A DNA stretch of 64,000 bases from Elusimicrobiota bacterium (lineage in GTDB: Bacteria > Elusimicrobiota > Elusimicrobia > UBA1565 > UBA9628). Below, in pieces: positions 14,251 through 55,727 of this stretch. Where the stretch lies: assembly GCA_023249645.1 (NCBI GenBank), contig JAHFCF010000008.1:7257-71256 (forward strand), written 5' to 3'. Numbering within the stretch: the stretch's first letter is position 1; each line of letters begins with the position of its first letter. The position numbers and the translations under genes were made by a program. Below the pieces are notes generated by a model, which worked only from the letters and a program-made list of their open reading frames with translations, searched no databases and was not told the origin of the DNA.

Positions 14251-15084
14251 TTATTTCGCCCCCATTATATCAGAGTCGAGGAACTCCCGGATCGCCCTTT
14301 CGACGATCTCCGATTTTTCCTCGTGGGGCACATGGCCGCATTCCGGGACGTGGAAGAATCTGGCTTGGGGCACCTCGCGGCAGAAGCGCTGGGCATCTTC
14401 GATGTGCACGAGGCAGTCATGCTCGCCGTGGATGAAGAGGACCGGGCCTTTGAGCTCGCGATAGCGCCTGAGGAAGCCCGCCACGTGTTTGTGGACGCCG
14501 CGGCGCATGGTCTCGGCGATGGAATGGCGTCCCTCGCGGGTCTGAAGGGCGATGGCGTATTCCTGGATCAGCTCCTCGGTGACGAGGTTTTGATCCAGGA
14601 AAGCCGTGGGCGCCACGACCCGGACGAGCCACGGGCCCAGGAGCGGCTCCAAGAGCCGGCCGAGCAGCGGGGTGCGCATGATGCGTATGATGCGCGGGAT
14701 GTGGCGCTCATCCACGGGCGTGCCGATCAGGACCAGGCGCGAGACGCGCGCTGGATGGTCCAGGGCCAGGGCAATCGAGATGGCGCCTCCCATGGAGCTG
14801 CCGATGAGCACGGCCTGGGGCAGGCCGAGCGTGTCCATGAAAGAGTTCAGCCAGCGCGTGAAGCCGACCAGGGAATAGTCGAAGTCGCGGGGCTTCTCCG
14901 AGCGGCCGAAGCCCGGCAGGTCAGGGGCATAGACCGCGTGGGTCTTGGCGAAGGCGGGCAGCAGACGGCGCCAGCCATAGGAGGAGGCGCCCATGCCGTG
15001 GAGGAAGATGAGAGGCTGGCCTTTCCCGCCGGAGAGCAGGTGGGTCCTGATTCCGGCGACGACGAGGGAGGACGGGGAGACCAT
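14251..15084 (-). CDS. Alpha/beta-fold hydrolase
   Basis: 277 aa. It has the nucleophile elbow 'GSSMGG', an N-terminal 'FLHGMGAS' oxyanion region, and a C-terminal 'HVPECGHVPHEE' His block. Confidence 0.8.
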   Translation of the reverse strand: MVSPSSLVVAGIRTHLLSGGKGQPLIFLHGMGASSYGWRRLLPAFAKTHAVYAPDLPGFGRSEKPRDFDYSLVGFTRWLNSFMDTLGLPQAVLIGSSMGGAISIALALDHPARVSRLVLIGTPVDERHIPRIIRIMRTPLLGRLLEPLLGPWLVRVVAPTAFLDQNLVTEELIQEYAIALQTREGRHSIAETMRRGVHKHVAGFLRRYRELKGPVLFIHGEHDCLVHIEDAQRFCREVPQARFFHVPECGHVPHEEKSEIVERAIREFLDSDIMGAK

Positions 15085-21787: not shown

Positions 21788-21807
21788 AGGGGAGATTATA
21801 ACAAATG

Positions 21808-27308: not shown

Positions 27309-28346
27309 ATGAAAAAGCTGATTGGATTTGGGGGACTGGCTGCTATTCTCGTCGTGGGAATTCAAGGGTTCCATAGGTATCAGCAGAGCACTCTTCTCTC
27401 TGCCCAGGAAAAACAGTCCTTGAGAGATGCTGCTGCGAGTGACCCTAATCAGAATAACGGTCAGATTTACATCCCGGTGCAAACTTTGGACCAGGAGCCT
27501 GCTACGGTGGAAGGGAGAACCAAAGAGGCGCATTGGATGGTAGAAGAGATGAAAGCTATGCAGAAAAAACAAGCAGATCTCGATAGTTTGCTGAAGGCTC
27601 TGAAGGAGAAGGTCATTTATGACAAGTCAATTTCCGACGAGGATAAGAGGCAAGTCGTTTTAAAAATGTTGTCTAAAGTGAAAGACTATCCGAACGCGCG
27701 CCGCGATTTGGCGTATCCTCTTCTGTGGGAAGTCGTTCAATCCGGCAGTCCGGATAAGGATATGGTGCAACTTCTAATCAGTGAGGGCGGCTTGAATGAT
27801 GGGCCGTCTCAAGCGGCAGCTCCGATTAATTACATTCGGCCGAATAAATTTTTTCAGGAGCAGGATCCGTTTTATCGCGATGATGGGAATGTTTCCACGA
27901 CTCTTTTGATTTCTGCCATTCGCAATGCCCCTGCAGTCGTGGAAACCATGCTTAAGCTTGGTGCCGATCCCAATACCCCAGACTATTATATGGGGAAACC
28001 TATGAGGACTCCTCTGATGTGGGCTGCGATCATGCGAAAACCGGAGCTTGTGACAACCTTACTGCACTGGCATGCCAATATCGACAGCCAGGATCAGAAA
28101 GGACACACTGCTGCCGAGTACTCCGGCATCCACATCCCGAACCTCCTTGATTTTGGCATTGTGGAATTTAGTGAGCCGCAGGAAGCGGAATGTACCAAGT
28201 CTGCGCGGGGTTTCTGCAGGGCCCGGGATGCGTGGTTCGGCACTCTGTCATATTTCAAGGAGAAGCCTGAGATTTGTAAAGAAGTAGAAAAACTTCCAAA
28301 CGACAAAAAAGTCATCCAAATACTGCCCCATTGCCTGCCCTACTAA
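27309..28346 (+). CDS. Membrane-anchored ankyrin-repeat protein, encoded in a low-GC patch
   Basis: 345 aa with an N-terminal TM/signal anchor and ankyrin-like 'TPLMWAAIMRKPELVTTLLHWHANIDSQDQKGHTA'. Gene GC is about 48-50% against about 65% locally. It is followed by an AT-rich 200-bp spacer. Confidence 0.65.
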   Translation: MKKLIGFGGLAAILVVGIQGFHRYQQSTLLSAQEKQSLRDAAASDPNQNNGQIYIPVQTLDQEPATVEGRTKEAHWMVEEMKAMQKKQADLDSLLKALKEKVIYDKSISDEDKRQVVLKMLSKVKDYPNARRDLAYPLLWEVVQSGSPDKDMVQLLISEGGLNDGPSQAAAPINYIRPNKFFQEQDPFYRDDGNVSTTLLISAIRNAPAVVETMLKLGADPNTPDYYMGKPMRTPLMWAAIMRKPELVTTLLHWHANIDSQDQKGHTAAEYSGIHIPNLLDFGIVEFSEPQEAECTKSARGFCRARDAWFGTLSYFKEKPEICKEVEKLPNDKKVIQILPHCLPY

Positions 28347-28560: not shown

Positions 28561-29331
28561 ATGGCCATCCCTTCTTTCGAGCTTCGAGAGTCCTTTCAGC
28601 TGGCTTTCCTGCGCCATCTGCACGCCCGGCTATCCCCGAGCCGCGCCTACGCGGTCAAGGGGGGGATCTGCCTGCGTTTCTTCCATCGCTCTCCCCGTCT
28701 CTCTCAGGACATGGACCTCGACATCGTGCCCGATTTTCCAGTTTCCACGCTCCAAAACGCAGTGGATTCCATCCTGGAGGGACGGGCCTTCGCCGCATCG
28801 CTCATCGGTCAAGGGATCACGAGGCTTGAGGTGCGCAAGCCCAAGCAGACTCAGACAACGCAGCGCTGGAAGATATCCCTCTTTATGAGCGTGGGCGAGC
28901 CTCTGCCCACCAAGATCGAATTCAGCCGGCGCCAGGAGGACATCCGCACTGCCGTGGCCGCTCCGGACGCTGAACTTCTGCGTCGCTATCGGATGACGCC
29001 CTTTGCCGCCCGCTTCTACGACGCGACGACTATGGCGGCCCAAAAGGTCGGCGCGCTTGCCGCGGCCTCGCGCTATGCCGCGCGCGATCTTTTCGACATC
29101 CACCATCTGCTGCGCGTCGTTCTGGTCAAGCCGGTCGAGGTCGCTGCTTTGGTCGAATCGAAGATCGTGGAAAATGCAGCTGACAAGGTCACGGCCTTCT
29201 CTTATGGCGACTTCAAGGAGCAGGTCCTGCCTTATCTTTCGGGAGAGATGATGGACCTTTACCGCGACGCGGCGGCTTTTGAACAGCAGAAAGCCGAAGT
29301 CGAAGAAGACTTGCTGGAGATGTTGCGATGA
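28561..29331 (+). CDS. AbiEii/AbiGii-family nucleotidyltransferase toxin (type IV toxin-antitoxin)
   Basis: 256 aa. 'ESFQLAFLRHL…VKGGICLRFFHRSPRLSQDMDLD' matches the DUF1814/AbiEii N-terminal signature. Confidence 0.7.
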   Translation: MAIPSFELRESFQLAFLRHLHARLSPSRAYAVKGGICLRFFHRSPRLSQDMDLDIVPDFPVSTLQNAVDSILEGRAFAASLIGQGITRLEVRKPKQTQTTQRWKISLFMSVGEPLPTKIEFSRRQEDIRTAVAAPDAELLRRYRMTPFAARFYDATTMAAQKVGALAAASRYAARDLFDIHHLLRVVLVKPVEVAALVESKIVENAADKVTAFSYGDFKEQVLPYLSGEMMDLYRDAAAFEQQKAEVEEDLLEMLR

Positions 29332-29936
29332 GCGCCGCCGGTCTGGTCAAGCTCATGCAGAAGCACTCCCTGCGGGTCTTTACGACTACGGATATGGCCG
29401 CGATCTCGGGCCTTTCGCCAGCTACGGCTAGCAAGGCCTTGGCACGGCTTTGCGCCCAGGACTTGGCCGTGCGGCTCAAGAAGGGCGTGTGGGTCAATAA
29501 GTTGGCCGCGGATCTGAATCCCTACGAGGCCGTGCCGTATCTGCGGATACCATGGCCTGCTTATGTGTCTCTGTACAGCGTTCTGGCGGATTGCGGCGTG
29601 GTCGAGGATATCCCGCAAGTGATTTATGGGGTCTCGGCGGCGCCGCCAAAATTCTATCGGACGCCTCTGGGAGAATTCCATATTCATCACCTGCCGGACC
29701 GGCTCATCTGGGGCTACGAGGTCCGGCATCAAGGACAGGCCCGATATCTTGCCGCTGAGCCGGAGAAAGCATTCCTCGACTTGGTCTATCTGGCGCTCAT
29801 CCCTAGGTGTCCGCTGAGTTTCCCCGTCAAACGCGGTAGGAAATGGGCGCTGGATGCGCAAAAACTTCGTTCCTACGCCAAGCGGTTTGGATTTCCTCCG
29901 CTCAGCTCCTGGCTCGAAGAAAACCGCCTCTTATAA
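29328..29936 (+). CDS. AbiEi-like antitoxin (N-terminal wHTH + AbiEi C-domain)
   Basis: 202 aa with a wHTH 'MAAISGLSPATASKALARLCAQDLAVRLKKGVWV'. It shares an ATGA overlap with the upstream AbiEii gene. The gene order is reversed relative to canonical abiEi-abiEii. Confidence 0.6.
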   Translation: MSAAGLVKLMQKHSLRVFTTTDMAAISGLSPATASKALARLCAQDLAVRLKKGVWVNKLAADLNPYEAVPYLRIPWPAYVSLYSVLADCGVVEDIPQVIYGVSAAPPKFYRTPLGEFHIHHLPDRLIWGYEVRHQGQARYLAAEPEKAFLDLVYLALIPRCPLSFPVKRGRKWALDAQKLRSYAKRFGFPPLSSWLEENRLL

Positions 29937-29940
29937 AAAT

Positions 29941-31368
29941 TCAGCGCCCTTCCTGCCACTGAGGAGTCTGGTCCGCGTTGTATTCGCGCCGGGCGACCTT
30001 CGAGACTTCTGGCCTGAGATAATCGTAGACCGCCTGCAGGTCCGATCCCTTCTCCTTGAGGCCCTTGAGGAAAAAATAGGTGAAGAGTCCGTGGCCCTTG
30101 TCCTGATAGCTGGACGAGATCTGATCGCCGGCCGCTGCCGTGATGACGGTCAGGTTCTGCGGCACATTGTTCGCGGCCATGGTGACCAAGGGCCGCGCTC
30201 CCCGGGCGATGACCGAGCGGCCTCCGGCGCCTGAAAAGCACGAGTCCATGGCCACGACGACCTTCTTGGCCGGCAGCTTGCCGAGATCGCGATAGAGCTT
30301 GGCGATCGAATATCCGGTCTGCTCGATGTAGGTCGGGTCGGCGTCGAAGGGGACGAGATACGCCTCGCCTGTCTTGGGGTTGGGGGCTCCATGGCCCGAG
30401 TAGTAGATGTAGATCGTGTCGCCCTCTTCGACCCTGTTGGGCAGCCAGCGTTCGAAGTACTTTTCGAAGTCGCTCTTCGCCGCCTGATCGTTGATCAGGA
30501 CCGCGACGTTCTCCTCCGGCACGCCGAGCACGCGCTCGTAGTACTTGGCGGCCAGGCGCGCGTCAGCGGCCGCGAAGTCGGCGTGCGGCAGGGCTTGGCG
30601 ATAGTTCTCGATCCCTATGACGATGGCGTGCGTGTGAGGCTGAGATATCGATGCGGGGGGAAGCGCGTCGATCTCGCTCGACACGGCGCTTGCCGGAAGG
30701 TTTGCCACCACGGGCGCGCGCTGCGGACGTGTCGGTGAGCGCAGGGCCTGCGCGTACTGGATGAACTTGGGGCCGTTGGTCAGGCTGAGCAGGACGTTGT
30801 TGATCGCTGTCGTAAAGGCCTCTTGCAGGCCAGTGCTGCGAGACCAGCCTTCCTGCGTGAAGGAGGCTTCGGCCAGGGCATGCTGGCCGGAACTGTCCAG
30901 GAACTTGGCAGGGACGCTGACAGTGTAGCGCCATTCGTCGGGAGGGACGAAGATGGGGAAGATCTCCCAGAAGGCGATGAATTGGAGGACGCAGACGCTC
31001 GATGCATCGAGTGTGGGAGGGGAGAATTCGATGAGGGCGTCGTACTGGCCCAAGGCCGAGGCCTTGTCCGCGACCAGATCGACTTCCTTGAATCTCGACT
31101 TGACCATCTCATAGGCCAGGCGGATGTATTCCTGATCGTAGGGGAGCGTCACGATGGTCTGGCCGATGATGCAGCGCGTCGGGACCACCACCGGCGGCAT
31201 GGCCGAGGTTTCCGGCATCACGAGACCGATCCTGAGGGGAATGGGTTGTGCATTGGTTATAGGAACGTTGTAGTTCGGATCGAATCTCACCTGGTGCTGC
31301 AGGGTGCAGGCTGCCAAGCTGCTGATGACGAGGCAGGCGAGGAGGGGCTTGAGGAATGATTTTTTCAT
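29941..31368 (-). CDS. Lipoprotein caspase-family protease (peptidase C14 / orthocaspase), paralog 1
   Basis: Start at 'MKKSFLKPLLACLVISSLAAC' (lipobox LAAC). The C-terminal domain carries the His-Cys dyad: 'HAIVIGIENY', 'YYSGHGAP', 'DSCFSGAGG'. The N-terminal about 240 aa is of unknown fold. Confidence 0.8.
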   Translation of the reverse strand: MKKSFLKPLLACLVISSLAACTLQHQVRFDPNYNVPITNAQPIPLRIGLVMPETSAMPPVVVPTRCIIGQTIVTLPYDQEYIRLAYEMVKSRFKEVDLVADKASALGQYDALIEFSPPTLDASSVCVLQFIAFWEIFPIFVPPDEWRYTVSVPAKFLDSSGQHALAEASFTQEGWSRSTGLQEAFTTAINNVLLSLTNGPKFIQYAQALRSPTRPQRAPVVANLPASAVSSEIDALPPASISQPHTHAIVIGIENYRQALPHADFAAADARLAAKYYERVLGVPEENVAVLINDQAAKSDFEKYFERWLPNRVEEGDTIYIYYSGHGAPNPKTGEAYLVPFDADPTYIEQTGYSIAKLYRDLGKLPAKKVVVAMDSCFSGAGGRSVIARGARPLVTMAANNVPQNLTVITAAAGDQISSSYQDKGHGLFTYFFLKGLKEKGSDLQAVYDYLRPEVSKVARREYNADQTPQWQEGR

Positions 31369-31372
31369 GGTT

Positions 31373-32881
31373 TCACCGTCCTTCCTGCCATTGGGGGGTC
31401 TGGTCCGCGTTGTATTCGCGTCGCGCGACCTTCGAAACCTCGGGCTTGAGATAATCATAGACCGCTTGCAGGTTCGGGCCTTTTTCCTTAAGACCCTTTA
31501 GGAAGAAGTAGGTGAAGAGTCCGTGGCCCTTGTCATCATAGCTCGTGGAGATCTGGTCGCCGGCAGCGGCCGTGAGCACCGTGAGGTTTTCGGGGACATC
31601 GGATGTCTTGAGTGTGACCAGGGGCCGCGCGCCCCGGGCGATGACCGAGCGGCCGCCGGCGCCGGAGAAGCACGAGTCCATGGCCACGACGACCTTCTTG
31701 GCCGGCAGCTTGCTGAGATCTCGATAGAGCTTGGCGATCGGATAGCCGGTCTGCTCGATGTAGGTCGGGTCGGCGTCATAGGGGACGAGATAAGCCTCGC
31801 CGGTCTTGGGATTCGGCGCGCCGTGTCCCGAGTAGTAGATGTAGACTGTGTCGCCCGCCTCCACGCGGTTGGGCAGCCAGCGCTCAAAATACTTCTCGAA
31901 GTCGCTTTTGGCGGCCTTGTCGTTGATAAGGAGCGCGACGTTCTCCTCCGGCACGCCGAGCACTCGCTTGTAGTACTTCGCGGCTAGTCGCGCGTCGGCA
32001 GCCGCGAAGTCGGCGCTCGGCAATTTCTCGCGGTAGTTCTCAACGCCGATGACGATGGCGTGGGAATGCGCGTTGGATGCCGAGGCGGAGGGAAGCTCGT
32101 CGATGTCGCTGCGCCGGGAGGCTGTCGTGGGCGCTGGCGGGGCAGCGGGCATCTGCGGCGAGGATTCAGCGGCGGGTTCTTCGGGAGCTGACATCGGTCC
32201 GGAGGGCGTCTGTTTTCTTTTCTTCGACCTTCGAGATGGAGTGGTCCTGGCCGTCGGCGCGGCAGCGACGATCTGTTGGCGCGAGGGGGCGCGGCCTTCG
32301 ATCAGCGCGACGAAGTCCTGGGATTCGAGGGTCGGCCCCATTCCCTGGACCGCGTTGGCGAGCGCTGTATTGATGGCTTGGCTGAAGCACGCATCCGGCC
32401 GGCCGAAGCCGGGGCGCAGGCCATTGGCCGTGCCCGTGAAGGTCCAGGAGAGCACGTTCTTTTGCCGGCGGTCCTTGATGGCCAAGGCGAAGGTGACCTT
32501 CCCGATGATCTTGTCATCAAGGCCTTCGGAACCGAGGTATCTGACGGACGCCTGCGTGAGCGAGGTTGCGAAGATCGCCTCGGCTTGAGCCGGATCCGTG
32601 GTCGTGGGCAGCTGCAGGCGGCCCAATTCTGTGACCAGGGCTTCCTGGAGGACCTCGGACATCGGACGATCCGCCTGCCAGAGCCCTTGATAAGTGGAGA
32701 TGCCTCCCGATAGATCGGTGGCAGCGTCCACGTAGACGATCGGCCGGCGCGGACCTTGGAAAGCGCGTGGGTTGGTTGTGGGATCGTACTTGAGGGTGAG
32801 GATGTCTGCGCAGCCGGAGAGCGTGCTGAGAAGCAGCGCGAGACTGGAAAATCTGAGGAGACGGCGCTCCATGTTCATCAT
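31373..32881 (-). CDS. Lipoprotein caspase-family protease (peptidase C14), paralog 2
   Basis: Lipobox 'LSTLSGC'. The caspase domain is about 90% identical to paralog 1 ('YYSGHGAP','DSCFSGAGG'). The N-terminal region is unrelated and has a Pro/Ala/Ser-rich linker. It lies 4 bp upstream of paralog 1. Confidence 0.8.
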   Translation of the reverse strand: MMNMERRLLRFSSLALLLSTLSGCADILTLKYDPTTNPRAFQGPRRPIVYVDAATDLSGGISTYQGLWQADRPMSEVLQEALVTELGRLQLPTTTDPAQAEAIFATSLTQASVRYLGSEGLDDKIIGKVTFALAIKDRRQKNVLSWTFTGTANGLRPGFGRPDACFSQAINTALANAVQGMGPTLESQDFVALIEGRAPSRQQIVAAAPTARTTPSRRSKKRKQTPSGPMSAPEEPAAESSPQMPAAPPAPTTASRRSDIDELPSASASNAHSHAIVIGVENYREKLPSADFAAADARLAAKYYKRVLGVPEENVALLINDKAAKSDFEKYFERWLPNRVEAGDTVYIYYSGHGAPNPKTGEAYLVPYDADPTYIEQTGYPIAKLYRDLSKLPAKKVVVAMDSCFSGAGGRSVIARGARPLVTLKTSDVPENLTVLTAAAGDQISTSYDDKGHGLFTYFFLKGLKEKGPNLQAVYDYLKPEVSKVARREYNADQTPQWQEGR

Positions 32882-32899
32882 TCCATTATACCATCCGGC

Positions 32900-33898
32900 C
32901 TAATTCTTTTTTTGAGCGGCTTTTTCCAGCGCCTTCAGTCCCGCATCGATGACGGCCTCATTGACGTTCCACAGCCGCAGGGTCTGGTCGTCGGATCCCG
33001 AAAGGACCCAGAGTCCGTCCGGGGAGAAGGCCACTGTGTTGACTCGGCCCGTGTGTCCGGTCCAGGTCTTGAGGCATTCGCCCGTCGCCGTCCTCCAAAG
33101 CTTGACCGTCATGTCGTAGCTGGAGGAGGCCACCAGTGAGCCGTCCGGCGAGAAAGCGGTCCAGTTCACCGTCTTGTCGTGCCCTTCCCAGATCGTCTTG
33201 AAGGCTCCGGTGTGCGCGTCCCAGAGCTTGATCGCGCCGTCCCATCCGCCGGTCAGGGCGATATTCCCGTCAGGGGAGAGTTCGGTCTCCGTGATCAGTC
33301 CTGTCGGAGAGGCCAGGGTGGCCAGGAGCTTGCCGGTGGCGACATCCCGGATCTCGGAGTCCGCGCCGCCGGCCAGCGTCTTGGTCCCGTCCGCGGAGAA
33401 GGCGACGGATTGGACATAGTCCCTGTGCACGGGCCAGTAAGGGACCTCACGGTCGGTGGATACGTCCCACAGCTTCAGGGTCTGGTCGGAGGCGCCGGAG
33501 AGGATCTTCTTGCCGTCCGGGGAAAACAGCGCGGTGTAGACGAAGATGCCGTGCCCCGGCGTTTCGAAGAGTTCCTTGCCCGTGGCCGCGTCCCAGGCTC
33601 GCAAGGAGAGCATGTCGCTGGCGGACAGCACGGTCTTGCCGTCCGGGCTGAAGGCGACGGCGATGACCGGGCTCGTGTGCCCCTGGAAGACGAAGAGGGT
33701 CTCTCCCGTGGACGTGTCCCAGAGGCGCACGGTCTGATCGCGGCTGCCGGAGAGGGCTTTGGTCCCGTCCGGGGAGAAGGCCGCGCAGAGCACGTCGTTG
33801 GTGTGGCCGTACCATATCGCCTGGAACCTCGTCGGATGATGGTTGGCAGAGGTGCAGCCCAGCGTGAAGAGAAAAGCGGCCGCCAACGCACGCTTCAT
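32900..33898 (-). CDS. WD40-repeat lipoprotein (7-bladed beta-propeller)
   Basis: Start at '[15 protein letters not shown]' (lipobox), 89 codons inside ORF 32900..34165. It has seven 'SPDG…W[DN]' repeats. Its ATGA overlaps the AsnRS-like stop. Confidence 0.8.
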
Positions 33899-35214
33899 GG
33901 ATAGATTCGATAGAGCATGCGCGGAAAGGCGATGGCCTCGCGGACGTGCTCGATGCCGCATAGCCACGAGGTGGTGCGCTCGATGCCCAAGCCGAAGCCT
34001 CCGTGCGGGACCGAGCCGTAGCGGCGCAGGTCCAGGTACCACTCGAAGGCCTCCTTCGGGAGCTTGTGCTTGGCGATCTGGGCTTCGAGGTAAGCCAGGT
34101 CGTCGGCGCGCTGGCCGCCGCCGATGATCTCGCCATAGCCCTCGGGGGCCAGGACATCCACGCACAGGGCCAGGCGCTCATCGGCCGGGTCGCGCTTCAT
34201 ATAAAAGGCCTTGACCTCGGCGGGGAAGCGGTGGACCATGACCGGCTGGTCGAACTCCGAACAGACGGCCGTCTCCTGGGGTGCGCCGAAGTCATCTCCC
34301 CAGACGAAGGGGACGTTCTTTCTCTTGAGGATGGCCGCGGCCTCGTCATAGCTGATGCGCGGGAAGGGGGCCGCGATCTTCTCGAGCTTGGAGGTGTCGC
34401 GCTCGAGCTCTTGGAATTCTTTGGGACAGGCCTTGAGCACATAATTCACGACGTGCGAGACGAAGCGCTCGGCCGTGTCCATGACGCCGTTCAAGTCGCA
34501 GTAGGCGATCTCCGGCTCCACCATCCAGAACTCGGTCAAGTGCCGCCGCGTCTTGGAGCGTTCAGCGCGGAAGGTCGGGCCCAGGCAGTAGACCTTGCCT
34601 AAGGCCATGGCCGCGGCCTCCATGTAGAGCTGGCCGGACTGGGTGAGGTAGGCCTTGCCCTCCTCGAAATATTCGAGCTCGAAGAGGTTCGTCGTGCCCT
34701 CGCAGGCGCTCGGCGTGAAGATGGGGGCGTCCACCTGGGTGAAGCCTTCTCCATCGAAGAAATCGCAGATCGCGCGCTTGACCTGATGGCGCACCCGGGC
34801 GATGGCCGCCTGCTTGCGCGAGCGCAGCCAGAGATGCCGTTGGCTGAGCAGGAAGTCCGGGCCGTGCTCCTTGGGGCCGATGGGGTATTCCGGGCCCTGG
34901 TGGACGACGACGAGGTCCTTGACCGCGAGCTCGACGCCTGAGGCCGCGCGCGCATCCGCCTTCACCGTTCCGCGAACGACGATCGCGGCTTCCTGGGCGA
35001 GGGACTTGGCCTTCTCGAAAACCTCGGGGGGTACGTCGCCCTGGAACAGGACGCACTGGCAGATGCCCGAGCCGTCGCGCACGAGCAGGAAGGCGAGCTT
35101 GCCCTTCAAGCGCATGTTGTAGAGCCAACCCTGGAGCGTGACCTCTTGGCCGATCTTTGAGGTCAGGTCCTGGATGCGCGCTGCGGGCGGGAACGTATCG
35201 GGCAGAGTGGTCAT
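33895..35214 (-). CDS. asnS: Class IIb aminoacyl-tRNA ligase, asparagine--tRNA ligase-like (or archaeal-type AspRS)
   Basis: 439 aa. It has the N-terminal OB anticodon-binding domain, motif 2 'FRAE', and motif 3 '[10 protein letters not shown]'. Its size fits AsnRS or short AspRS. Confidence 0.8.
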
Positions 35215-35260
35215 GAGGAAATCCTAGATAAGACGACTATACTTAAAATTGAAGGGCCGC

Positions 35261-38077
35261 TTAAGAGGGGTTCTTGCGCAGCGCCTCTGTGAGGGCCGTC
35301 CAATATCCAAAACTGCTTGCAAATTCTGACTGCAAGGGAGCATCAACGACTTCCGGTTCCGGTCGGGATTCTGAGGAGAACTTGTTGGGGAAATTGATTT
35401 TAGCCGATCGGATCAACTGCCCCTCGGATCCTACCAGGAAAAACATGGCTTTCCCATTTTCTCCCAAGGAGAAAATGTAATGTCCGACTTGCGATTTCCC
35501 TTGAGAGGAATAGGCGTAGGAATACAGGGCATGGAGCCTCTTGGTTCCATCAGGAGATTTTTCATAGAAACCCGGCATATGCCATGCTTTGATCTGTGAG
35601 TCTGCGGGCAGCCGGAACATCTTGATGGCACTCGCCGCATTATTCGAGGTCAGGGTTCTGCCCTTGCCGGCGACTTGTTCGACCATGAAGCTCCACGCTT
35701 GCGGCGGGATCTTCGGCGACTTGGGCTGGGCCGCTGCTTGGGTCGGTCCGCTCCCTTTAGTATTTGTGGGGCTGGCTGGCGGGGTCTCGGCTTTGGCCTG
35801 GGGTTGTTCGCTCGGAGGAGGCAGCTGTTTTTTTACGGTATCGAGGATGAATTCCTTCAGACCGGCAAAGCCGGTCTTCAGGTCCTTGGGCGTCGGGTTG
35901 TAGCGGATGCTCCCTTTGACTCCCCAGTCCTCGAGCGTATCTTTCAGGCTGCCATCGAGCAGCCTGCGGATGGCCATGCTGGCGGTGTAAGAAAAGCCGG
36001 CGATGCCTTCACTGTTGAGCAGCTCCAGGGAATGCACGACTCCGCCGGCGCCGGCCGTGTGCTCGCCGGCGACGCTGACGATCAGGGCGCGCCCATTGTC
36101 CTGCAGGATGGCGGGCATGAAGTCTCCGCCGGAGAAGTCCAGCGGGTTCGTCAAGAACACGATGGGCTTGGTGTAGCGCTCCTCCGCGTTGTCCACGGGC
36201 TGAATATAGTCGATGCCTTGCAAAGCCATGGGTTCCGTGAAGCGCGTCTTGACGTCGGCGAATTGCTCCACGATGAAGAGCGCATACTTAAAGAGGCCCT
36301 TCATGAATTCCGGGGTGATCGGATAGCCGTCCGCTGTAGGCTGCCTTCTCACAATCTTAGGCTGAGGTTGGGGCTGCGGGTTTTCTCCTGCGGCTTTCTC
36401 CGGAGCCTGGGGGCCGCCTGGGGGGGTCATCATCTGCTGAAGCCGGCTGAGAAGCTGCCTGGCCCAAGTGTATTCCGGCTCTCCGATCTTGAGCTGGTGT
36501 TTGGGGGTGATGAGAGGCTTGTCCGTGAGATGGGAGGCCAGGGCATAGAGGTAGAAGACAGAACCGCCCGGATTGTTCATCTGGTCGATGACCAAGCCGT
36601 CGGTTTCCTTTTGGAACAGGACGATGATCTTCTTGAACTCTGCGACTTCCTTATCGCTGCCGCTGTAGCTGGAGATGCGCAAAAAGCCGATCTTGCGTTG
36701 GTCCACGGTCTCGAAGATGGCAGGTCGGAAGGGATTGTCCGGGGGGCCCTGCCAGAGGATCTTCCCTAAGGGCGGGAGCATGCTCTCCGGAGAGCCGACC
36801 ATGTGGGGATTGCTCTTATGGGCTCCCTCCACCATCTGCTCGAAGATCGCGATATGCGGATGGGCGACCTTGGAGTAGGCGAGCTTGATGAGTTTGAGCA
36901 CCGCGTCCATCCCAGACTCGGGCGCGTCGTTGTCCGCATCGAGCCCCGATTGCGGCTGGTTGAGCCCTCCGCTGGCTTTGGGAGACGATGCATCGTCGGG
37001 AGGGACATCGCTTGGATACTGCTCCTCGGTGATGACCCATTTCGTCTTGATGTCGAATGCCTGGTCCGGCTGGCCCTGCGCCTCTCGGCGGATCTTGAGA
37101 GAAACCTCGTTGGAGGCGGGGAGTTGGTCGCCCCTAGCGCGGCGCTGATTGGTCAGGAAGATCGCAGCCAAGAGGCGGTTCGTGTCCGGAGAGCTGCCCC
37201 CCGCTTGGGCGGCCAGCTCGTCGATGGCGGCGGCCACGGGCCGGCCGTTGAATTCGACGATCTCGTCGCCGACCTTCAAAGCGGCCAGCTCGGGTTGCTG
37301 CGCGCTGGGGCTGATGAAGGCCACGTAGTATCTGTATTGGCCGTCCACGAGCATCGGGATCACCGTGAGCGGCAAGCGCGCCCCTCCGGTGGCATAGAAC
37401 ATGGTGCTGTCGTGATAGTTGAGTACGGCCGCGAAGAATCTTCGCAGGCGGACCTGGAATTCGGCGACCGTGATGTTCGGGTTGGAGACGATGGCTCTGT
37501 AGAACTCCTTGTAATGCCCCTGGATGTCGATGTGGAATCGTTCTTCCTTCTTGCGGAGGGGCGCATCGTTCTTGAGGAAAACGTTGTAGATGTAGTTGAG
37601 GCTGGTCCGCATGTCCTCGCGCAAGGCATCGAGAGGTTCGGACTGGCTGTCGGCCGACGCGCCGGCTCCGGCGGCGTCTTCCACGTCGTTGGTCAGCGCC
37701 TCGACGACTTCAAATCCAAGACCCTTGGCCGCGTCATCGGTCATTTTTCCGATCGGGCCGACCTCCAGGCCCCGCTGTACTCGCCGGGATTTCGCGGCGA
37801 TCTTGTCCCCGATGCTCCGCGGGCCTGTTTGAGGAGCGGGCATCGCTTGGGGAGTCGGAGCAGGGCTGAGGATCCCCGCGCTGGGCGGCAGGAGAGGCGG
37901 AGTTTTTGAGAATTGTTCTTGCGGAGCGGCGATGTTGGCGCCCACGGGCGGGACGAATACGGGCGGCAGCAAAACGGGGACCAGGAAGGCTTTCTTCGCT
38001 GTCGGTCCTTGGGCGAAGACAGGGTTCGAGAGGCAGGCCAGCAGCCCGACGGCGATGAATGCTTTAAAAAGGCGCAT
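35261..38077 (-). CDS. Secreted S41-family peptidase (C-terminal processing / tricorn-core-like), large multidomain
   Basis: Start at 'MRLFKAFIAVGLLACLSNPVFAQG' (signal peptide, GGAG Shine-Dalgarno). 'IDQMNNPGGSV' is the S41 hallmark, with a downstream 'LTNPLDFSGGDF' Ser region. It is Pro-rich with low-complexity linkers. Confidence 0.7.
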   Translation of the reverse strand: MRLFKAFIAVGLLACLSNPVFAQGPTAKKAFLVPVLLPPVFVPPVGANIAAPQEQFSKTPPLLPPSAGILSPAPTPQAMPAPQTGPRSIGDKIAAKSRRVQRGLEVGPIGKMTDDAAKGLGFEVVEALTNDVEDAAGAGASADSQSEPLDALREDMRTSLNYIYNVFLKNDAPLRKKEERFHIDIQGHYKEFYRAIVSNPNITVAEFQVRLRRFFAAVLNYHDSTMFYATGGARLPLTVIPMLVDGQYRYYVAFISPSAQQPELAALKVGDEIVEFNGRPVAAAIDELAAQAGGSSPDTNRLLAAIFLTNQRRARGDQLPASNEVSLKIRREAQGQPDQAFDIKTKWVITEEQYPSDVPPDDASSPKASGGLNQPQSGLDADNDAPESGMDAVLKLIKLAYSKVAHPHIAIFEQMVEGAHKSNPHMVGSPESMLPPLGKILWQGPPDNPFRPAIFETVDQRKIGFLRISSYSGSDKEVAEFKKIIVLFQKETDGLVIDQMNNPGGSVFYLYALASHLTDKPLITPKHQLKIGEPEYTWARQLLSRLQQMMTPPGGPQAPEKAAGENPQPQPQPKIVRRQPTADGYPITPEFMKGLFKYALFIVEQFADVKTRFTEPMALQGIDYIQPVDNAEERYTKPIVFLTNPLDFSGGDFMPAILQDNGRALIVSVAGEHTAGAGGVVHSLELLNSEGIAGFSYTASMAIRRLLDGSLKDTLEDWGVKGSIRYNPTPKDLKTGFAGLKEFILDTVKKQLPPPSEQPQAKAETPPASPTNTKGSGPTQAAAQPKSPKIPPQAWSFMVEQVAGKGRTLTSNNAASAIKMFRLPADSQIKAWHMPGFYEKSPDGTKRLHALYSYAYSSQGKSQVGHYIFSLGENGKAMFFLVGSEGQLIRSAKINFPNKFSSESRPEPEVVDAPLQSEFASSFGYWTALTEALRKNPS

Positions 38078-38365: not shown

Positions 38366-38468
38366 GAATTTGATGGATAGATCGGCCAGAAAGTTTGTTG
38401 AAACTTAGATATCTTATATGATATGTATCTATTTGGTTGAAAGCGGACTGGTTGAGGAGGAGCGCGGC

Positions 38469-38771
38469 ATGAAGACCAAGATGGGGGGCAAACGGATTCT
38501 TTTTCGCGATGATTTAAAGGAGCGGCTCAGGGATCCGAAGTTCCGCCAGGCCTTTGACGCGGCGGACGCGCCAGTCCGTCTGGCGGTCGCGCTGGCGCAG
38601 GCGCGGGTCAGCGCGGGGTTGACGCAGAAAACCCTCGCTCACGCTCTCGGCACCAAGCAATCGAATATTTCCCGCATGGAGAAGGGAATCCAGAATGTGA
38701 CAGTCGGCACCCTGGAAAAGATCGCCCAGGCGCTTCACCGGAAGCTGGAAATCAGGTTCCGTCCCGCTTAG
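38469..38771 (+). CDS. XRE-family HTH protein, HigA/antidote-like (orphan antitoxin)
   Basis: Start at 'MKTKMGG' behind GGAGG. 'LTQKTLAHALGTKQSNISRMEKG' is a classic Cro/C1 HTH. No partner toxin ORF is present in this window. Confidence 0.6.
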   Translation: MKTKMGGKRILFRDDLKERLRDPKFRQAFDAADAPVRLAVALAQARVSAGLTQKTLAHALGTKQSNISRMEKGIQNVTVGTLEKIAQALHRKLEIRFRPA

Positions 38772-52015: not shown

Positions 52016-52756
52016 ATGAATCGACGCGCATCCGTGGTCCTGGTCCGGCTCGTTTTCGCCGCGTCTTTGCTTGGCGCCGCCGGCGGGGCCGGCGCTGAGG
52101 AGACCGCGTCCCGGGCGTGGAAGGACGTCGCCGAGCTTGGCTTCACGAACACCACCGGCAACAGCCGGGTCGCCACGTTCGAGGCGGACAATCTTTTCAG
52201 CTATGCCTGGAAACGCACGGGCCTGGAGCTCAAGGGGGGTGCCCTGACTTCCAAGGAACATGGCAAGACCGCGGACGAGGAGTATAACGCGAGCGAGAAG
52301 GTCACGCGGGAACTCGCCGGGAAGCTTTACGGATACGAGAGGTTCGGTTGGGATCGGAATCGTTTTTCCGGGATCCGCGACCGCTATAATTCTTTCCTAG
52401 GCGCCGGGGAGGAGCTGTGGAGCGCGCCGAAGGACAGCCTCGTCGGGGAAGCCGGCGCCGGCTATATCAGCGAAGAAAGGCCGGACAAGACTGACGCCTT
52501 CGCGTCCGGGAGACTCTACGTGAAATGTGTCCATGCGCTGAGCAAGACGGCCAGCGTTTTCCAGGACGCGGAGTACCTGTACAATTTCCAGGACGCCGCG
52601 GACTATCGGCTCAACACCGAGACGGCCCTTCTGGCCTCGATCTCCACCAACGTCGCGCTGAAGGCTTCCTACAAATGGAAGAGGGTCGAGAAGCCCGCCC
52701 CCGGCTTTATCAAGGACGATACGATCACGACCATGGCGCTGGTCGTCAATTATTGA
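52016..52756 (+). CDS. DUF481-family outer-membrane beta-barrel protein (YdiY-like)
   Basis: 246 aa with a signal peptide. It has alternating beta-strand periodicity, and 'TNTTGNS…' is the DUF481 N-terminal pattern. It ends with the aromatic 'VVNY'. Confidence 0.55.
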   Translation: MNRRASVVLVRLVFAASLLGAAGGAGAEETASRAWKDVAELGFTNTTGNSRVATFEADNLFSYAWKRTGLELKGGALTSKEHGKTADEEYNASEKVTRELAGKLYGYERFGWDRNRFSGIRDRYNSFLGAGEELWSAPKDSLVGEAGAGYISEERPDKTDAFASGRLYVKCVHALSKTASVFQDAEYLYNFQDAADYRLNTETALLASISTNVALKASYKWKRVEKPAPGFIKDDTITTMALVVNY

Positions 52757-53206: not shown

Positions 53207-54619
53207 ATGTTGAAGAAGATGCTATGGCCGTTGGCGTCGCTGGTCTTTCTCGCCGGCTGCGCGTCCGGCCCGATAACGGCGGGCTTGCCCGGCCATCAGG
53301 CCGAAGTCGGGCCCCAGCCAACGCTCGAACGCTCCGCCGCTTCGGAGCCGGGGTTCTGCGTCGTCTCGGTGCAGTCGATGTGGCCCTCCCAAAGGTTCTT
53401 TCATTACGAGGCGTTCGCCGCCAACGCGTCCTTCCGAGATATCCGGCTGCTCACCGACAACCACCCCGGCCCGCAGGGCTGCGACGTCCTGCTCAAGCTC
53501 TTCACGCCCGGCCGAACCGCCTGGTCCACCCACAGGGTCGAGGCCTACTCCGCGTACACGCGCGAATTGGTGTGGGAAGGCTCCGCGCCGGGACAGACGA
53601 ACGCCATGGGTTACATGCGACTGGCGCCCGTCCTGCAGCGGGCCTTCCAGCCCGGTCAGCCGGCGTATGAGAGGATCGCGGCGGACAAGAAGGCCGGCCA
53701 CGCGCCCACCGTCGACGACGTCGAGCATTCCTTCGGCGGCCTCACGCCCGAGGCCGGCGAGTACGGTCTGGGCGCGTTCCCGAACGTCCGCGTCGGGGCT
53801 CGTCCCCAGGAGACGCCCGTCGCGGCCGCCGTGCCGGTCCACGCGCCGGCCCTGGCTCCGGCCCCGGAGTCCCCGCCGACGACCTCCGACGTCGACGAGC
53901 CTCCGGCGGCCTCCGGCCTCAAGCGCGGCCACGCGGTCATCGTGGGCGTCGAGCGGTACCGCGGCAATCTGCCCAAGGCGGACTACGCCGTGTCCGACGC
54001 CAAGACGATGGCGCGCTACGCCCACGCCGTCCTTGGCTATCCTGAGGAGAACATCGCGCTGCTGACCGGCGAGACCGCTACGCGCAGCGATCTGGTCAAG
54101 TACCTCGAGAAGTGGCTGGCCAACCGCGTGGAGAAGGACGACGAGGTCTTCGTGTATTTCTCCGGTCATGGCGCGCCCGATGTCAAGACCGGCGACGCGT
54201 ATCTGGTCCCCTACGACGGCGACCCAGCCTACCTCGAGGAGACCGGCTACTCCGTCAAGAAGCTCTACGCGGCGCTGGCCGCGCTGCCGGCCAGGAAGGT
54301 CACGGCGGTGCTGGACTCGTGCTTCTCCGGCGCGGGCGGGCGCTCGGTCATCGCCAAGGGCGCGCGTCCGCTGGTCACCGTGAAGGCCGCCGACGCGCCT
54401 GCGGGCGTGACGGTCATCGCCGCCGCGGGCGCCGGCCAGGTCTCCAACACCTACGACGAGAAGGGCCACGGTCTGTTCACCTACTTCCTTCTCAAGGGTA
54501 TGAAGGAGCGCGGCTCGGACCTCAAGCTCGTCTTCGACTATCTCAAGCCCGAGGTCGCCAGAGTGGCGCGGCGCGAGTACAACGCCGACCAGGAGCCGCA
54601 GTGGAGGGAGGGGCGCTGA
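53207..54619 (+). CDS. Lipoprotein caspase-family protease (peptidase C14), paralog 3
   Basis: Start at 'MLKKMLWPLASLVFLAGC' (lipobox). The caspase domain has 'HAVIVGVERY', 'YFSGHGAP', 'DSCFSGAGG'. It is about 70% identical to paralogs 1 and 2 in that domain. The N-terminal domain is unrelated. Confidence 0.8.
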   Translation: MLKKMLWPLASLVFLAGCASGPITAGLPGHQAEVGPQPTLERSAASEPGFCVVSVQSMWPSQRFFHYEAFAANASFRDIRLLTDNHPGPQGCDVLLKLFTPGRTAWSTHRVEAYSAYTRELVWEGSAPGQTNAMGYMRLAPVLQRAFQPGQPAYERIAADKKAGHAPTVDDVEHSFGGLTPEAGEYGLGAFPNVRVGARPQETPVAAAVPVHAPALAPAPESPPTTSDVDEPPAASGLKRGHAVIVGVERYRGNLPKADYAVSDAKTMARYAHAVLGYPEENIALLTGETATRSDLVKYLEKWLANRVEKDDEVFVYFSGHGAPDVKTGDAYLVPYDGDPAYLEETGYSVKKLYAALAALPARKVTAVLDSCFSGAGGRSVIAKGARPLVTVKAADAPAGVTVIAAAGAGQVSNTYDEKGHGLFTYFLLKGMKERGSDLKLVFDYLKPEVARVARREYNADQEPQWREGR

Positions 54620-54653: not shown

Positions 54654-54732
54654 TGGCGGGGTCGACGGGATTTGAACCCGCGGTCTCCGCCTTGACAGGG
54701 CGGCGTGTTAAACCAGGCTACACCACGACCCC
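54654..54732 (-). tRNA. tRNA-Asp (GTC), CCA encoded
   Basis: Reverse complement GGGGTCGTGGTGTAGCCTGGTTTAACACGCCGCCCTGTCAAGGCGGAGACCGCGGGTTCAAATCCCGTCGACCCCGCCA. It folds as a cloverleaf with anticodon loop CTGTCAA and T-loop GTTCAAATC. Confidence 0.85.
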
Positions 54733-54778
54733 AAAATCGAGGATTCACTATACCAAATTGCGGGGGCGAGAAAAAACG

Positions 54779-54850
54779 TGGGCCGTGTAGGATTCGAACC
54801 TACGACCTACCGCGTGTAAGGCGGCCGCTCTACCGCTGAGCTAACGGCCC
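54779..54850 (-). tRNA. tRNA-Val (TAC), CCA not encoded
   Basis: Reverse complement GGGCCGTTAGCTCAGCGGTAGAGCGGCCGCCTTACACGCGGTAGGTCGTAGGTTCGAATCCTACACGGCCCA. The anticodon loop is CTTACAC and the T-loop is GTTCGAATC. A T-run follows. Confidence 0.8.
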
Positions 54851-55629: not shown

Positions 55630-55727
55630 AGAATGTTTTTCGTGGTATAATGTCCCTAGGGTGACGTCAGCCCTTGCCGCGCAGTCAGCGGGCATACAAC
55701 GCATCAGTTAAGGAGAAGTTACCAGAC
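55630..55727 (+). promoter_or_regulatory. csp promoter (TATAAT at about 55643) and about 80-nt 5' UTR with AAGGAG Shine-Dalgarno
   Basis: Sequence 'ttttcgtggTATAATgtccc…ttAAGGAGaagttaccagacATG'. A long leader is typical of cold-shock genes. Confidence 0.5.

What the first reader, a model, noticed from the sequence alone, without database searches (positions are those of the whole stretch)
32900..38077. Co-directional, tightly packed array: secreted S41 peptidase - AsnRS-like ligase - WD40 lipoprotein - caspase - caspase
All five genes are on the minus strand with 46-bp, ATGA-overlap, 18-bp and 4-bp junctions. An essential aminoacyl-tRNA ligase is translationally coupled (ATGA) to a 7-bladed WD40 beta-propeller lipoprotein. 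That lipoprotein is followed by the two caspase lipoproteins. A large secreted S41 serine peptidase lies immediately upstream. Pairing a WD40 scaffold with caspase-type proteases resembles eukaryotic and STAND-type assemblies, but no NTPase is present. An extracytoplasmic WD40+caspase+S41 proteolytic module wired to a housekeeping gene is unusual.
Basis: partly seen in the sequence, partly recalled or inferred. Interest (0 to 1): 0.65.

Follow-up and report, generated by a model that had tools for sequence, protein, structure and literature searches.

The report
Unconserved cluster of envelope protease genes
Five tightly packed same-strand genes (a CPAF-type serine protease, asparaginyl-tRNA synthetase, a WD40 lipoprotein and two caspase-like lipoproteins) are really there. 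No retrievable relative shares the arrangement, so it looks like a lineage-specific juxtaposition, not a dedicated proteolytic machine.

Summary
All five minus-strand genes and the 46-bp, ATGA-overlap, 18-bp and 4-bp junctions are exact. The stated coordinates cover only the first three genes; the caspases lie at 29941-32881.

Refinements:
- The "S41 peptidase" belongs to the CPAF family. It scores above the NCBIfam equivalog cutoff and keeps the His/Ser/Glu triad. It falls in a long-form clade already annotated as CPAF in Elusimicrobiota MAGs.
- The "caspases" have a metacaspase-like DSC motif. They are lipoproteins with a variable N-domain (DUF330/PqiC-like fold in casp1), a disordered tether and a conserved C14 domain.
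- The WD40 protein is a 7-bladed lipoprotein propeller.

The "module" reading is not supported:
- None of 160 AsnRS loci, six CPAF-like loci or five caspase-homologue contexts elsewhere shows this linkage.
- A third caspase paralogue 21 kb away stands alone.
- Four-base overlaps are the commonest junction in this window.
- An extended -10 promoter motif sits in the WD40/caspase spacer, and a hairpin with a short U-tract closes the CPAF gene.

Caveat: only distant relatives were retrievable.

Kelch-propeller fusions in the same caspase family keep a propeller-caspase partnership conceivable. Interest is low to moderate.

The parts
35261..38077 (-). CPAF-family S41 serine protease, 938 aa. It has a Sec signal peptide and a Pro/Ala-rich N-extension of about 150 aa. 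The PDZ_4 plus S41 core spans 152-750, with triad H222/S649/E716. A C-terminal extension of about 190 aa follows.
   Evidence: - NCBIfam NF033424 CPAF equivalog: 409.5 bits against a cutoff of 250.
- Pfam PDZ_4 plus Peptidase_S41.
- phmmer against C. trachomatis CPAF 3dja/3dor: E = 3e-46, query 172-750, with the triad columns conserved.
- Nearest relatives are Elusimicrobiota 'protease-like activity factor CPAF' proteins.
35245..35287 (-). Hairpin spanning the CPAF-like stop codon (35252-35287), followed by UUUU (35245-35248). This is a candidate weak terminator or attenuator. TATAGT lies at 35236-35241, 21 nt before the asnS ATG.
   Evidence: RNA fold: -15.9 kcal/mol, z = -2.5, 2 of 200 shuffles as stable. 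The consensus terminator scan did not call it. The spacer is 41% GC in a genome of about 61% GC.
33895..35214 (-). asnS, asparagine--tRNA ligase, 439 aa. It has an OB anticodon-binding domain and a class II core.
   Evidence: NCBIfam asnS equivalogs: 538 bits (cutoff 414) and 473 bits (cutoff 343). Pfam tRNA_anti-codon plus tRNA-synt_2.
32900..33898 (-). WD40 lipoprotein, 332 aa. It carries the signal peptide [14 protein letters not shown]|C, a seven-bladed propeller and a C-terminal helix at 312-331. Its ATG overlaps the asnS TGA as ATGA.
   Evidence: - Pfam WD40, E = 5e-68.
- AF2 pLDDT 90.8, pTM 0.86, with 28 strands counting a two-residue one.
- Overlap read directly from the sequence.
- No close orthologue found; best hits are 31-47% identical generic WD40 proteins.
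32885..32893 (-). Extended -10 promoter-like motif TGGTATAAT inside the 18-bp WD40/casp1 spacer. It ends 4, 7 and 13 nt before the three candidate ATGs of casp1.
   Evidence: TGNTATAAT occurs 4 times in the window against 0.21 expected, and 0 of 100 shuffles reach 4. All four sites lie on the sense strand within about 80 nt upstream of an ORF start.
31373..32881 (-). casp1, a C14 caspase-like lipoprotein, 502 aa. Layout: LSG|C lipobox, DUF330/PqiC-like N-domain (about 25-195), disordered Pro/Ala/Ser tether (203-254), and C14 domain (258-502) with H353/C404 in SGHG and DSC motifs.
   Evidence: - Pfam C14.
- AF2 pLDDT 83.7.
- Foldseek: C14 domain to MALT1, metacaspases and caspases at E = 2e-10; N-domain to 2iqi (DUF330) at E = 9e-7, TMt 0.65.
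- H353 and C404 are invariant in 46 homologues.
29941..31368 (-). casp2, a tandem C14 lipoprotein paralogue, 475 aa. It has a LAA|C lipobox, an unrelated orphan N-domain, and a C14 domain 87% identical to casp1's (H326/C377).
   Evidence: - BLASTP: 87% identity over 245 aa and no N-domain similarity.
- DNA identity 84%, with third codon positions at 66%, so the duplication is not recent.
- The N-domain has no homologue among 403 retrieved proteins.
53207..54619 (+). Third C14 lipoprotein paralogue (LAG|C lipobox, a different N-domain, C14 about 60% identical). It lies outside the array and serves as an internal control.
   Evidence: tblastn, ORF translation and Pfam C14. Its neighbours are a DUF481 protein gene, two tRNA genes and a DUF218 gene, with no WD40, S41 or AsnRS.

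Best explanation
This is a lineage-specific, co-directional string of independently functioning genes in a probable Elusimicrobiota genome. It is not a conserved multi-protein system.

The most likely transcription layout is three units, with read-through possible between them.

(i) The CPAF-like gene. It follows a 340-bp divergent intergenic region and ends in a hairpin with a short U-tract. Its product is Sec-exported. It acts as an S41 serine protease using a CPAF-type His222/Ser649/Glu716 triad and a PDZ-like domain.

(ii) asnS-WD40. asnS encodes the cytoplasmic asparaginyl-tRNA synthetase. The WD40 lipoprotein has no Shine-Dalgarno sequence, so it would be translated by termination-reinitiation at the ATGA overlap. 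It is then exported and lipid-anchored as a seven-bladed propeller.

(iii) casp1-casp2, driven by an extended -10 promoter in the 18-bp spacer. These are lipid-anchored proteases with four parts: an N-terminal Cys anchor, a variable N-domain (DUF330/PqiC-like fold in casp1, not determined in casp2), a flexible tether of about 50 residues, and a highly conserved C14 domain. The DSC motif resembles metacaspases and paracaspases, which suggests cleavage after Arg/Lys and not after Asp.

Shown here: domain identities, catalytic residues, folds, junction geometry, motif enrichment, and absence of synteny in relatives.
Inferred: export and localisation, transcription units, P1 specificity, and functional independence of the gene products.
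For: Linkage is absent wherever it could be looked for:
- 80 genome loci and 80 metagenome loci carrying AsnRS show no tblastn hit at E <= 1e-3 to the WD40 or caspase proteins. The only CPAF hit is one 64-residue PDZ-region match in L116.
- CPAF-like genes sit next to six different gene sets: POR/transketolase, M16 peptidase, SpoU/OmpA, aminotransferase/HtrA-like, HisKA/PIN, and unannotated genes.
- Caspase homologues sit next to amidase/radical-SAM genes, cytochrome bc genes with other C14 genes, inside microcompartment loci, or next to TenA and methyltransferase genes.

The caspases belong to a large, scattered, modular family:
- 2553 hits in the homologue search.
- 17 of the top 120 carry Kelch propellers, and one carries PDZ/Sel1.
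- Three paralogues occur in this window, and one of them is solitary.

Tight packing is the local norm.

Candidate transcription signals:
- TGNTATAAT occurs 4 times against 0.21 expected, always sense-oriented upstream of a start, and one copy lies in the WD40/casp1 spacer.
- A hairpin closes the CPAF gene, z = -2.5.

Composition is uniform across the array.
Against: - All four non-AsnRS products are predicted to be exported, and three of them are proteases. Their clustering could therefore be functional.
- Beta-propeller-C14 fusions exist in the same family.
- WD40 is the domain most often fused to bacterial metacaspases (PMC3501461).
- No close relative of this organism was retrievable, so synteny loss at 40-65% protein identity is weak evidence.
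- The promoter and terminator calls are motif-level only. The consensus scan found no minus-strand signal at any junction.
Confidence: 0.65

Rival explanations
1. One reading: a genuine extracytoplasmic proteolytic module. The WD40 lipoprotein would act in trans as a propeller adaptor or scaffold for the two tethered C14 proteases. The CPAF-like protease would be an upstream or downstream partner. Expression would be tied to asnS.
For: - All partners carry export or lipoprotein signals.
- The genes are co-directional and tightly packed, and no consensus terminator was called on the minus strand.
- Kelch-propeller-C14 fusions occur in 17 of the 120 closest homologues. P0007 has the layout lipobox, casp1-like N-domain, Kelch, C14.
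- WD40 is the commonest domain fused to bacterial metacaspases (PMC3501461).
Against: - There is no co-occurrence in any of the 160 AsnRS, six CPAF-like or five caspase contexts.
- No orthologue of the WD40 lipoprotein was found at all.
- The third caspase paralogue stands alone.
- A promoter-like motif separates the WD40 gene from casp1.
- The fused propellers are Kelch, not WD40.
- The one WD40-C14 fusion retrieved (P0227) has a visibly different N-terminal C14 sequence.
Confidence: 0.17
2. A defence or conflict island: caspase-like effectors, a WD40 sensor and the adjacent AbiE abortive-infection pair acting together against phage.
For: - AbiEii and AbiEi genes abut casp2.
- The PADLOC generic 'caspase' model hits all three C14 proteins at E of about 1e-17. 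The WD40 protein hits part of a candidate-system model.
- The NCBIfam 'caspase, EACC1-associated type' model gives weak hits.
Against: - Lipoprotein signals place the caspases and the WD40 protein outside the cytoplasm.
- The EACC1-type scores (77-82 bits) are far below the cutoff of 140.
- No NTPase, STAND or EACC1 component is present.
- The AbiE pair is convergent and self-contained, with a 4-bp overlap between its two genes.
- Homologues sit in metabolic and housekeeping contexts, not in defence islands.
Confidence: 0.03
3. The AsnRS gene is a non-canonical paralogue recruited to serve the envelope proteins, for example through aminoacyl-tRNA-dependent modification. This would explain the coupling to the WD40 gene.
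For: - The ATGA coupling to a lipoprotein gene.
- The closest AsnRS sequences are only 55-65% identical and come from other phyla.
Against: - It is a full-length asnS equivalog, well above both curated cutoffs, with an anticodon-binding OB domain and an intact class II core.
- None of 160 homologous loci has such neighbours.
- Four-base overlaps between unrelated genes are common in this window.
Confidence: 0.03

Closest known systems
CPAF, chlamydial protease-like activity factor (CT858; MEROPS family S41; PDB 3DJA/3DOR)
   Same: - The core is collinear: window residues 172-750 align to CPAF chain residues 25-559 at E = 3e-46.
- It has the PDZ_4 plus S41 architecture.
- It scores above the NCBIfam CPAF equivalog cutoff.
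- The water-mediated triad His105/Ser499/Glu558 (PMC8787135) aligns with H222/S649/E716.
   Different: - The host is probably Elusimicrobiota, not Chlamydiota.
- The protein is 938 aa, against about 600 for chlamydial CPAF. It adds a Pro/Ala-rich N-extension of about 150 aa and a C-terminal domain of about 190 aa shared only with P0242 and weakly with P0246.
- The YLPY loop reads RLPL.
- Secretion route, zymogen self-processing and substrates are unknown.
- NCBI already labels Elusimicrobiota relatives as CPAF. No paper in the searched library mentions this.
Bacterial orthocaspases/metacaspase-like C14 peptidases, and the MALT1 paracaspase as the nearest solved fold
   Same: - The C14 fold matches MALT1 at Foldseek E = 2e-10 and TMt 0.73.
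- The His-Cys dyad sits in SGHG and DSC motifs.
- The Asp two residues before the catalytic Cys matches metacaspases and paracaspases. From my own knowledge, this predicts basic P1 specificity.

   Different: - They are lipoproteins with a DUF330/PqiC-like N-domain and a long disordered tether.
- The family is heavily expanded, mostly in Elusimicrobia-labelled MAGs. A 2012 survey found no metacaspases in that phylum (PMC3501461).
- No activity data exist.
DUF330 / ABC-transport auxiliary lipoproteins (PqiC/YmbA type; PDB 2IQI XCC0632)
   Same: The casp1 N-domain (about 25-195) matches 2iqi at E = 9e-7 and TMt 0.65 over about 176 columns. Both proteins are lipoproteins.
   Different: - There is no Pfam sequence match.
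- Here the domain is fused to a protease.
- No Mce/Pqi partner genes lie nearby.
- The equation of DUF330 with PqiC/YmbA rests on my own knowledge.
Apoptosome and STAND NTPase-WD40-caspase assemblies
   Same: WD40 propeller and caspase-fold protease genes lie next to each other.
   Different: - No NTPase is present.
- The proteins are separate and carry export signals, so they would be extracytoplasmic.
- The linkage is not conserved.
BamB-type propeller lipoproteins co-transcribed with a housekeeping gene (bamB-der in E. coli; my own knowledge)
   Same: A beta-propeller lipoprotein is encoded directly next to a translation-related housekeeping gene.
   Different: - The propeller has 7-bladed canonical WD40 repeats, not 8-bladed PQQ-like repeats.
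- No BamB model matched.
- The resemblance is an analogy only.

Membership tests
CPAF family (NCBIfam NF033424) | Whole-protein score above the curated equivalog cutoff | tested here: met
   409.5 bits against a cutoff of 250, covering profile positions 25-562 of 564.
CPAF family (NCBIfam NF033424) | PDZ-like domain plus S41 catalytic domain, with the His/Ser/Glu triad | tested here: met
   Pfam PDZ_4 plus Peptidase_S41. H222, S649 and E716 align with H105, S499 and E558 of CT858. The triad is as stated in PMC8787135.
CPAF family (NCBIfam NF033424) | Zymogen self-processing and secretion into a host cell | not testable with these tools
   Only a Sec-type signal peptide is visible, and the organism's lifestyle is unknown.
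Peptidase C14 (caspase/metacaspase/orthocaspase) | C14 domain above the Pfam gathering score, and a caspase-hemoglobinase fold | tested here: met
   48-52 bits against a cutoff of 21.4. Foldseek hits to MALT1, metacaspase 9 and caspases at E between 1e-10 and 1e-6.
Peptidase C14 (caspase/metacaspase/orthocaspase) | Catalytic His-Cys dyad | tested here: met
   H353/C404 in casp1 and H326/C377 in casp2. Both residues are invariant across 46 homologues.
Caspase, EACC1-associated type (NF047832) | Score above the curated cutoff | tested here: not met
   81.5 and 77.1 bits against a cutoff of 140.
Bacterial lipoproteins | Signal peptide ending in a lipobox with an invariant Cys | tested here: met
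   LSG|C in casp1, LAA|C in casp2, LAG|C in the third paralogue and TLG|C in WD40. The last fits only the permissive PROSITE-style pattern. All were read from the sequence. Lipidation itself was not tested.
WD40 seven-bladed propeller | Seven WD repeats forming a closed propeller | tested here: met
   - Pfam WD40 matched six stretches.
- WD, WR or WN dipeptides recur at 42-residue spacing, with one degenerate repeat.
- The AF2 model has 28 strands, pTM 0.86.
Asparagine--tRNA ligase (asnS) | Equivalog score plus an OB anticodon domain and a class II core | tested here: met
   NF003037 at 538 bits (cutoff 414) and TIGR00457 at 473 bits (cutoff 343). Pfam domains present.
Conserved gene module or operon (S41-asnS-WD40-C14-C14) | The linkage recurs in related genomes | tested here: not met
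   There is no co-occurrence in 160 AsnRS loci, six CPAF-like loci or five caspase contexts. All relatives are distant.
Conserved gene module or operon (S41-asnS-WD40-C14-C14) | A single transcript with no internal promoters or terminators | tested here: inconclusive
   The consensus scan found none on the minus strand. Against that, TGGTATAAT lies in the WD40/casp1 spacer and a hairpin plus U4 lies at the S41 stop. RNA data are needed.
STAND/apoptosome-like assemblies | An NTPase (NACHT/NB-ARC) coupled to WD40 and caspase in the cytoplasm | tested here: not met
   No NTPase domain occurs in or next to the array. The WD40 and C14 proteins carry export signals.

The most novel reading that the evidence does not exclude
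The WD40 lipoprotein could be a trans-acting propeller adaptor for the tethered C14 lipoproteins. This would be the split-gene counterpart of the Kelch-C14 fusions seen in relatives. Together with the CPAF-type protease, it would form an outer-membrane or periplasmic protease cascade. Synthesis of the adaptor would be tied to translation capacity through coupling to asnS.
Probability: 0.12. Interest if true: 0.6.

Novelty: new member of a known kind. Interest (0 to 1): 0.3.

Why it matters
As a gene cluster it matters little. It illustrates that tight co-directional packing and ATGA overlaps in a compact genome are not by themselves evidence of a functional module.

The components are of more interest:
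- CPAF is usually discussed as a chlamydial virulence protease. It has a sizeable long-form clade in Elusimicrobiota, which offers a non-pathogen context for studying the ancestral role of the family.
- The C14 lipoproteins form a very large and apparently undescribed family. They combine a conserved metacaspase-like domain, a flexible tether and interchangeable N-domains (DUF330-like, Kelch, PDZ/Sel1). This points to envelope-anchored Arg/Lys-directed proteolysis as a major, unstudied activity in this phylum.

Tried and rejected
- Word-indexed homologue search with the CPAF-like protein returned only the protein itself. The exhaustive HMMER search was needed instead.
- The WD40 homologue search returned only generic WD40 proteins at 31-47% identity and no orthologue. 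Exported single-propeller WD40 proteins do exist, but they carry SPase I signals and are not clear relatives.
- AsnRS-anchored scans of genomes and metagenomes found nothing closer than 65% identity, so no near relative could be examined.
- Recent gene conversion between casp1 and casp2 was rejected, because third codon positions are only 66% identical.
- Horizontal-transfer composition signal was rejected, because GC and GC3 are typical of the window.
- hhalign of the casp2 N-domain against the casp1 family was not significant (probability 3%).
- The defence-system reading was rejected.
- Rfam found only two tRNAs, far from the array.
- Literature searches for CPAF in Elusimicrobia returned nothing.
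- My crude gene caller mis-called the WD40/casp1 stretch, so the gap statistics are approximate.

Full report
**Observation**

The minus strand between 29.9 and 38.1 kb carries five consecutive ORFs. Their junctions are exactly as described:
- S41 peptidase, 35261-38077. AAGGAG lies 6 nt before the ATG.
- A 46-bp spacer.
- asnS, 33895-35214.
- An ATGA overlap at 33895-33898.
- WD40 protein, 32900-33898.
- An 18-bp spacer.
- casp1, 31373-32881.
- A 4-bp spacer.
- casp2, 29941-31368.

The finding's coordinates (32900-38077) leave out both caspase genes. The same contig exists in an ENA metagenome assembly with identical gene calls.

GC content and GC3 (0.75-0.88) are typical of the window.

Named best hits for casp1 and for the S41 protein are almost all Elusimicrobia or Elusimicrobiota MAGs. 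The organism is therefore probably a member of that phylum.

**What the genes are**

*The S41 protein.* This is not a generic tail-specific protease.
- It scores 409.5 bits on the NCBIfam CPAF equivalog model, against a cutoff of 250.
- It aligns collinearly, residues 172-750, with C. trachomatis CPAF structures at E = 3e-46.
- Published work gives the CPAF triad as His105/Ser499/Glu558 (PMC8787135). A single numbering offset of 30 places H222, S649 and E716 of the window protein on those three residues.
- An exhaustive HMMER search found 461 cluster representatives at E <= 1e-30. The nearest are 700-1036 aa long forms. Every named one is annotated 'protease-like activity factor CPAF [Elusimicrobiota]'.
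- The sampled forms of about 570-620 aa include one from Chlamydiia (P0255).
- The window protein adds a Pro/Ala-rich N-extension and a C-terminal region of about 190 aa. That C-terminal region is shared clearly only with P0242, at 37% identity.

*asnS.* It is a full-length equivalog.

*The WD40 protein.*
- It has an N-terminal lipoprotein signal (TLG|C).
- It folds as a seven-bladed propeller with a C-terminal helix, pLDDT 90.8.
- It has no detectable orthologue.

*The caspases.*
- Both are lipoproteins, with LSG|C and LAA|C lipoboxes.
- The AlphaFold model of casp1 (pLDDT 83.7) has three parts: an N-domain at residues 25-195, a disordered tether at 203-254, and a C14 domain.
- Foldseek matches the C14 domain to MALT1, metacaspases and caspases.
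- It matches the N-domain to the DUF330 lipoprotein 2iqi at E = 9e-7 and TMt 0.65.
- H353 and C404 are invariant in 46 homologues.
- The DSC motif resembles metacaspases and paracaspases. From my own knowledge of those families, this suggests Arg/Lys specificity at P1 and not Asp.
- The casp1 and casp2 C14 domains are 87% identical at protein level. Third codon positions are only 66% identical, and the N-domains are unrelated.

**Is it a module?**

Three independent anchors were used to look for the linkage elsewhere.

(a) AsnRS.
- The best 80 loci from species-representative genomes and the best 80 from JGI metagenomes are 55-65% identical.
- tblastn at E <= 1e-3 finds no WD40 or caspase relative within 10 kb of any of them.
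- The only CPAF hit is one 64-residue PDZ-region match in L116.

(b) CPAF-like genes. Six loci have entirely different neighbours, and none has AsnRS, WD40 or C14 on record. One neighbour of the closest relative, P0242, is cut by the contig end and is unidentified.

(c) Caspase homologues.
- P0002 lies among amidase and radical-SAM genes.
- P0005 lies after cytochrome bc genes and is followed by three more C14 genes.
- P0010 and P0022 lie inside microcompartment loci.
- The Kelch-C14 fusion P0101 lies between TenA and methyltransferase genes.

Within the window itself, a third C14 lipoprotein (53207-54619, +) sits next to a DUF481 gene and two tRNA genes, with no WD40, S41 or AsnRS nearby.

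Four-base overlaps are the commonest same-strand junction in this window. One joins an unrelated aldolase and an M20 peptidase just upstream.

**Transcription signals**

- The consensus scan found no minus-strand promoter or terminator at the junctions.
- The extended -10 motif TGNTATAAT occurs four times in the window, against 0.21 expected.
- All four copies lie sense-oriented within about 80 nt upstream of an ORF start. One copy, TGGTATAAT at 32885-32893, fills the WD40/casp1 spacer.
- A hairpin of -15.9 kcal/mol (z = -2.5) spans the CPAF stop codon. It is followed by UUUU and then by TATAGT.
- The WD40 ATG has no Shine-Dalgarno sequence and overlaps the asnS stop codon.
- The likeliest layout is therefore three units: [CPAF-like], [asnS-WD40] and [casp1-casp2].

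**What keeps the functional reading alive**

- All non-AsnRS products are predicted to be exported.
- Seventeen of the 120 closest caspase homologues carry a Kelch propeller on the same polypeptide. P0007 has the layout lipobox, casp1-like N-domain, Kelch, C14.
- WD40 is the domain most often fused to bacterial metacaspases (PMC3501461).
- Only distant relatives could be examined.
- I put this reading at about 0.15.

**Other readings**

A defence-island reading is unlikely. The AbiE pair is adjacent and PADLOC gives generic hits. However, the proteins carry export signals, no NTPase is present, and the EACC1-type caspase scores fall below the cutoff.

**Verdict**

The module interpretation is not supported by comparative evidence.

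The array is best seen as new members of known families placed side by side. The CPAF-type clade in Elusimicrobiota and the expanded tethered C14 lipoprotein family are the parts worth following up.

Noticed in passing
L005-L007 (gene at 10001-11386 in L005) and L177 (8001-9368): Two C14 lipoprotein homologues, P0010 and P0022, are only 55% identical to each other. Both occupy the same slot inside a bacterial-microcompartment locus: TIM-PTAC-BMC-EutN-Aldedh-BMC-RpiB-C14-EutN-EutN-DeoC-BMC. Both overlap RpiB by 4 bp. This is a conserved embedding of a predicted exported protease in a cytoplasmic BMC operon.
   Followed up: partly
window 53207-54619 (+), with 52016-52756 (+) and 54657-54850 (-): A third C14 lipoprotein paralogue has a different N-domain. 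It lies downstream of a DUF481 protein gene and is followed by two tRNA genes.
   Followed up: partly
window 28561-29936 (+): In the AbiE pair the toxin gene (AbiEii, 28561-29331) comes first and the AbiEi gene (29328-29936) second, with a 4-bp overlap. The pair is convergent with casp2, and only 4 bp separate the two gene ends.
   Followed up: no
window 14264-14272 (-), 21795-21803 (-), 32885-32893 (-), 55643-55651 (+): TGNTATAAT is about 19-fold enriched over shuffles and always lies just upstream of a same-strand ORF start. At 21795 and 32885 it lies within 13 nt of the start codon, which suggests leaderless or very short-leader mRNAs in this organism.
   Followed up: partly
proteins P0242-P0258, P0266-P0267 (loci L088-L093, L174-L175): A long-form (700-1036 aa) CPAF-type protease clade is widespread in Elusimicrobiota MAGs. 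NCBI already labels it CPAF, but no paper in the searched library mentions it.
   Followed up: partly
window 38418-38771 (+): An XRE-type HTH gene lies divergent from the CPAF-like gene across a 340-bp intergenic region. Its 3' end overlaps the convergent M20 peptidase gene by 4 bp. It may be a local regulator.
   Followed up: no
window 27309-28346 (+): An ankyrin-repeat protein gene with unusually low GC3 (0.53, against 0.7-0.9 for its neighbours), which may indicate foreign origin.
   Followed up: no
L089-L091 (2110-6897): One CPAF-like locus lies next to an M16 peptidase gene and a pair of nitrogenase-like Oxidored_nitro genes with a radical-SAM gene. From my own knowledge, this resembles the nitrogenase paralogue cluster reported for groundwater Elusimicrobia.
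   Followed up: no
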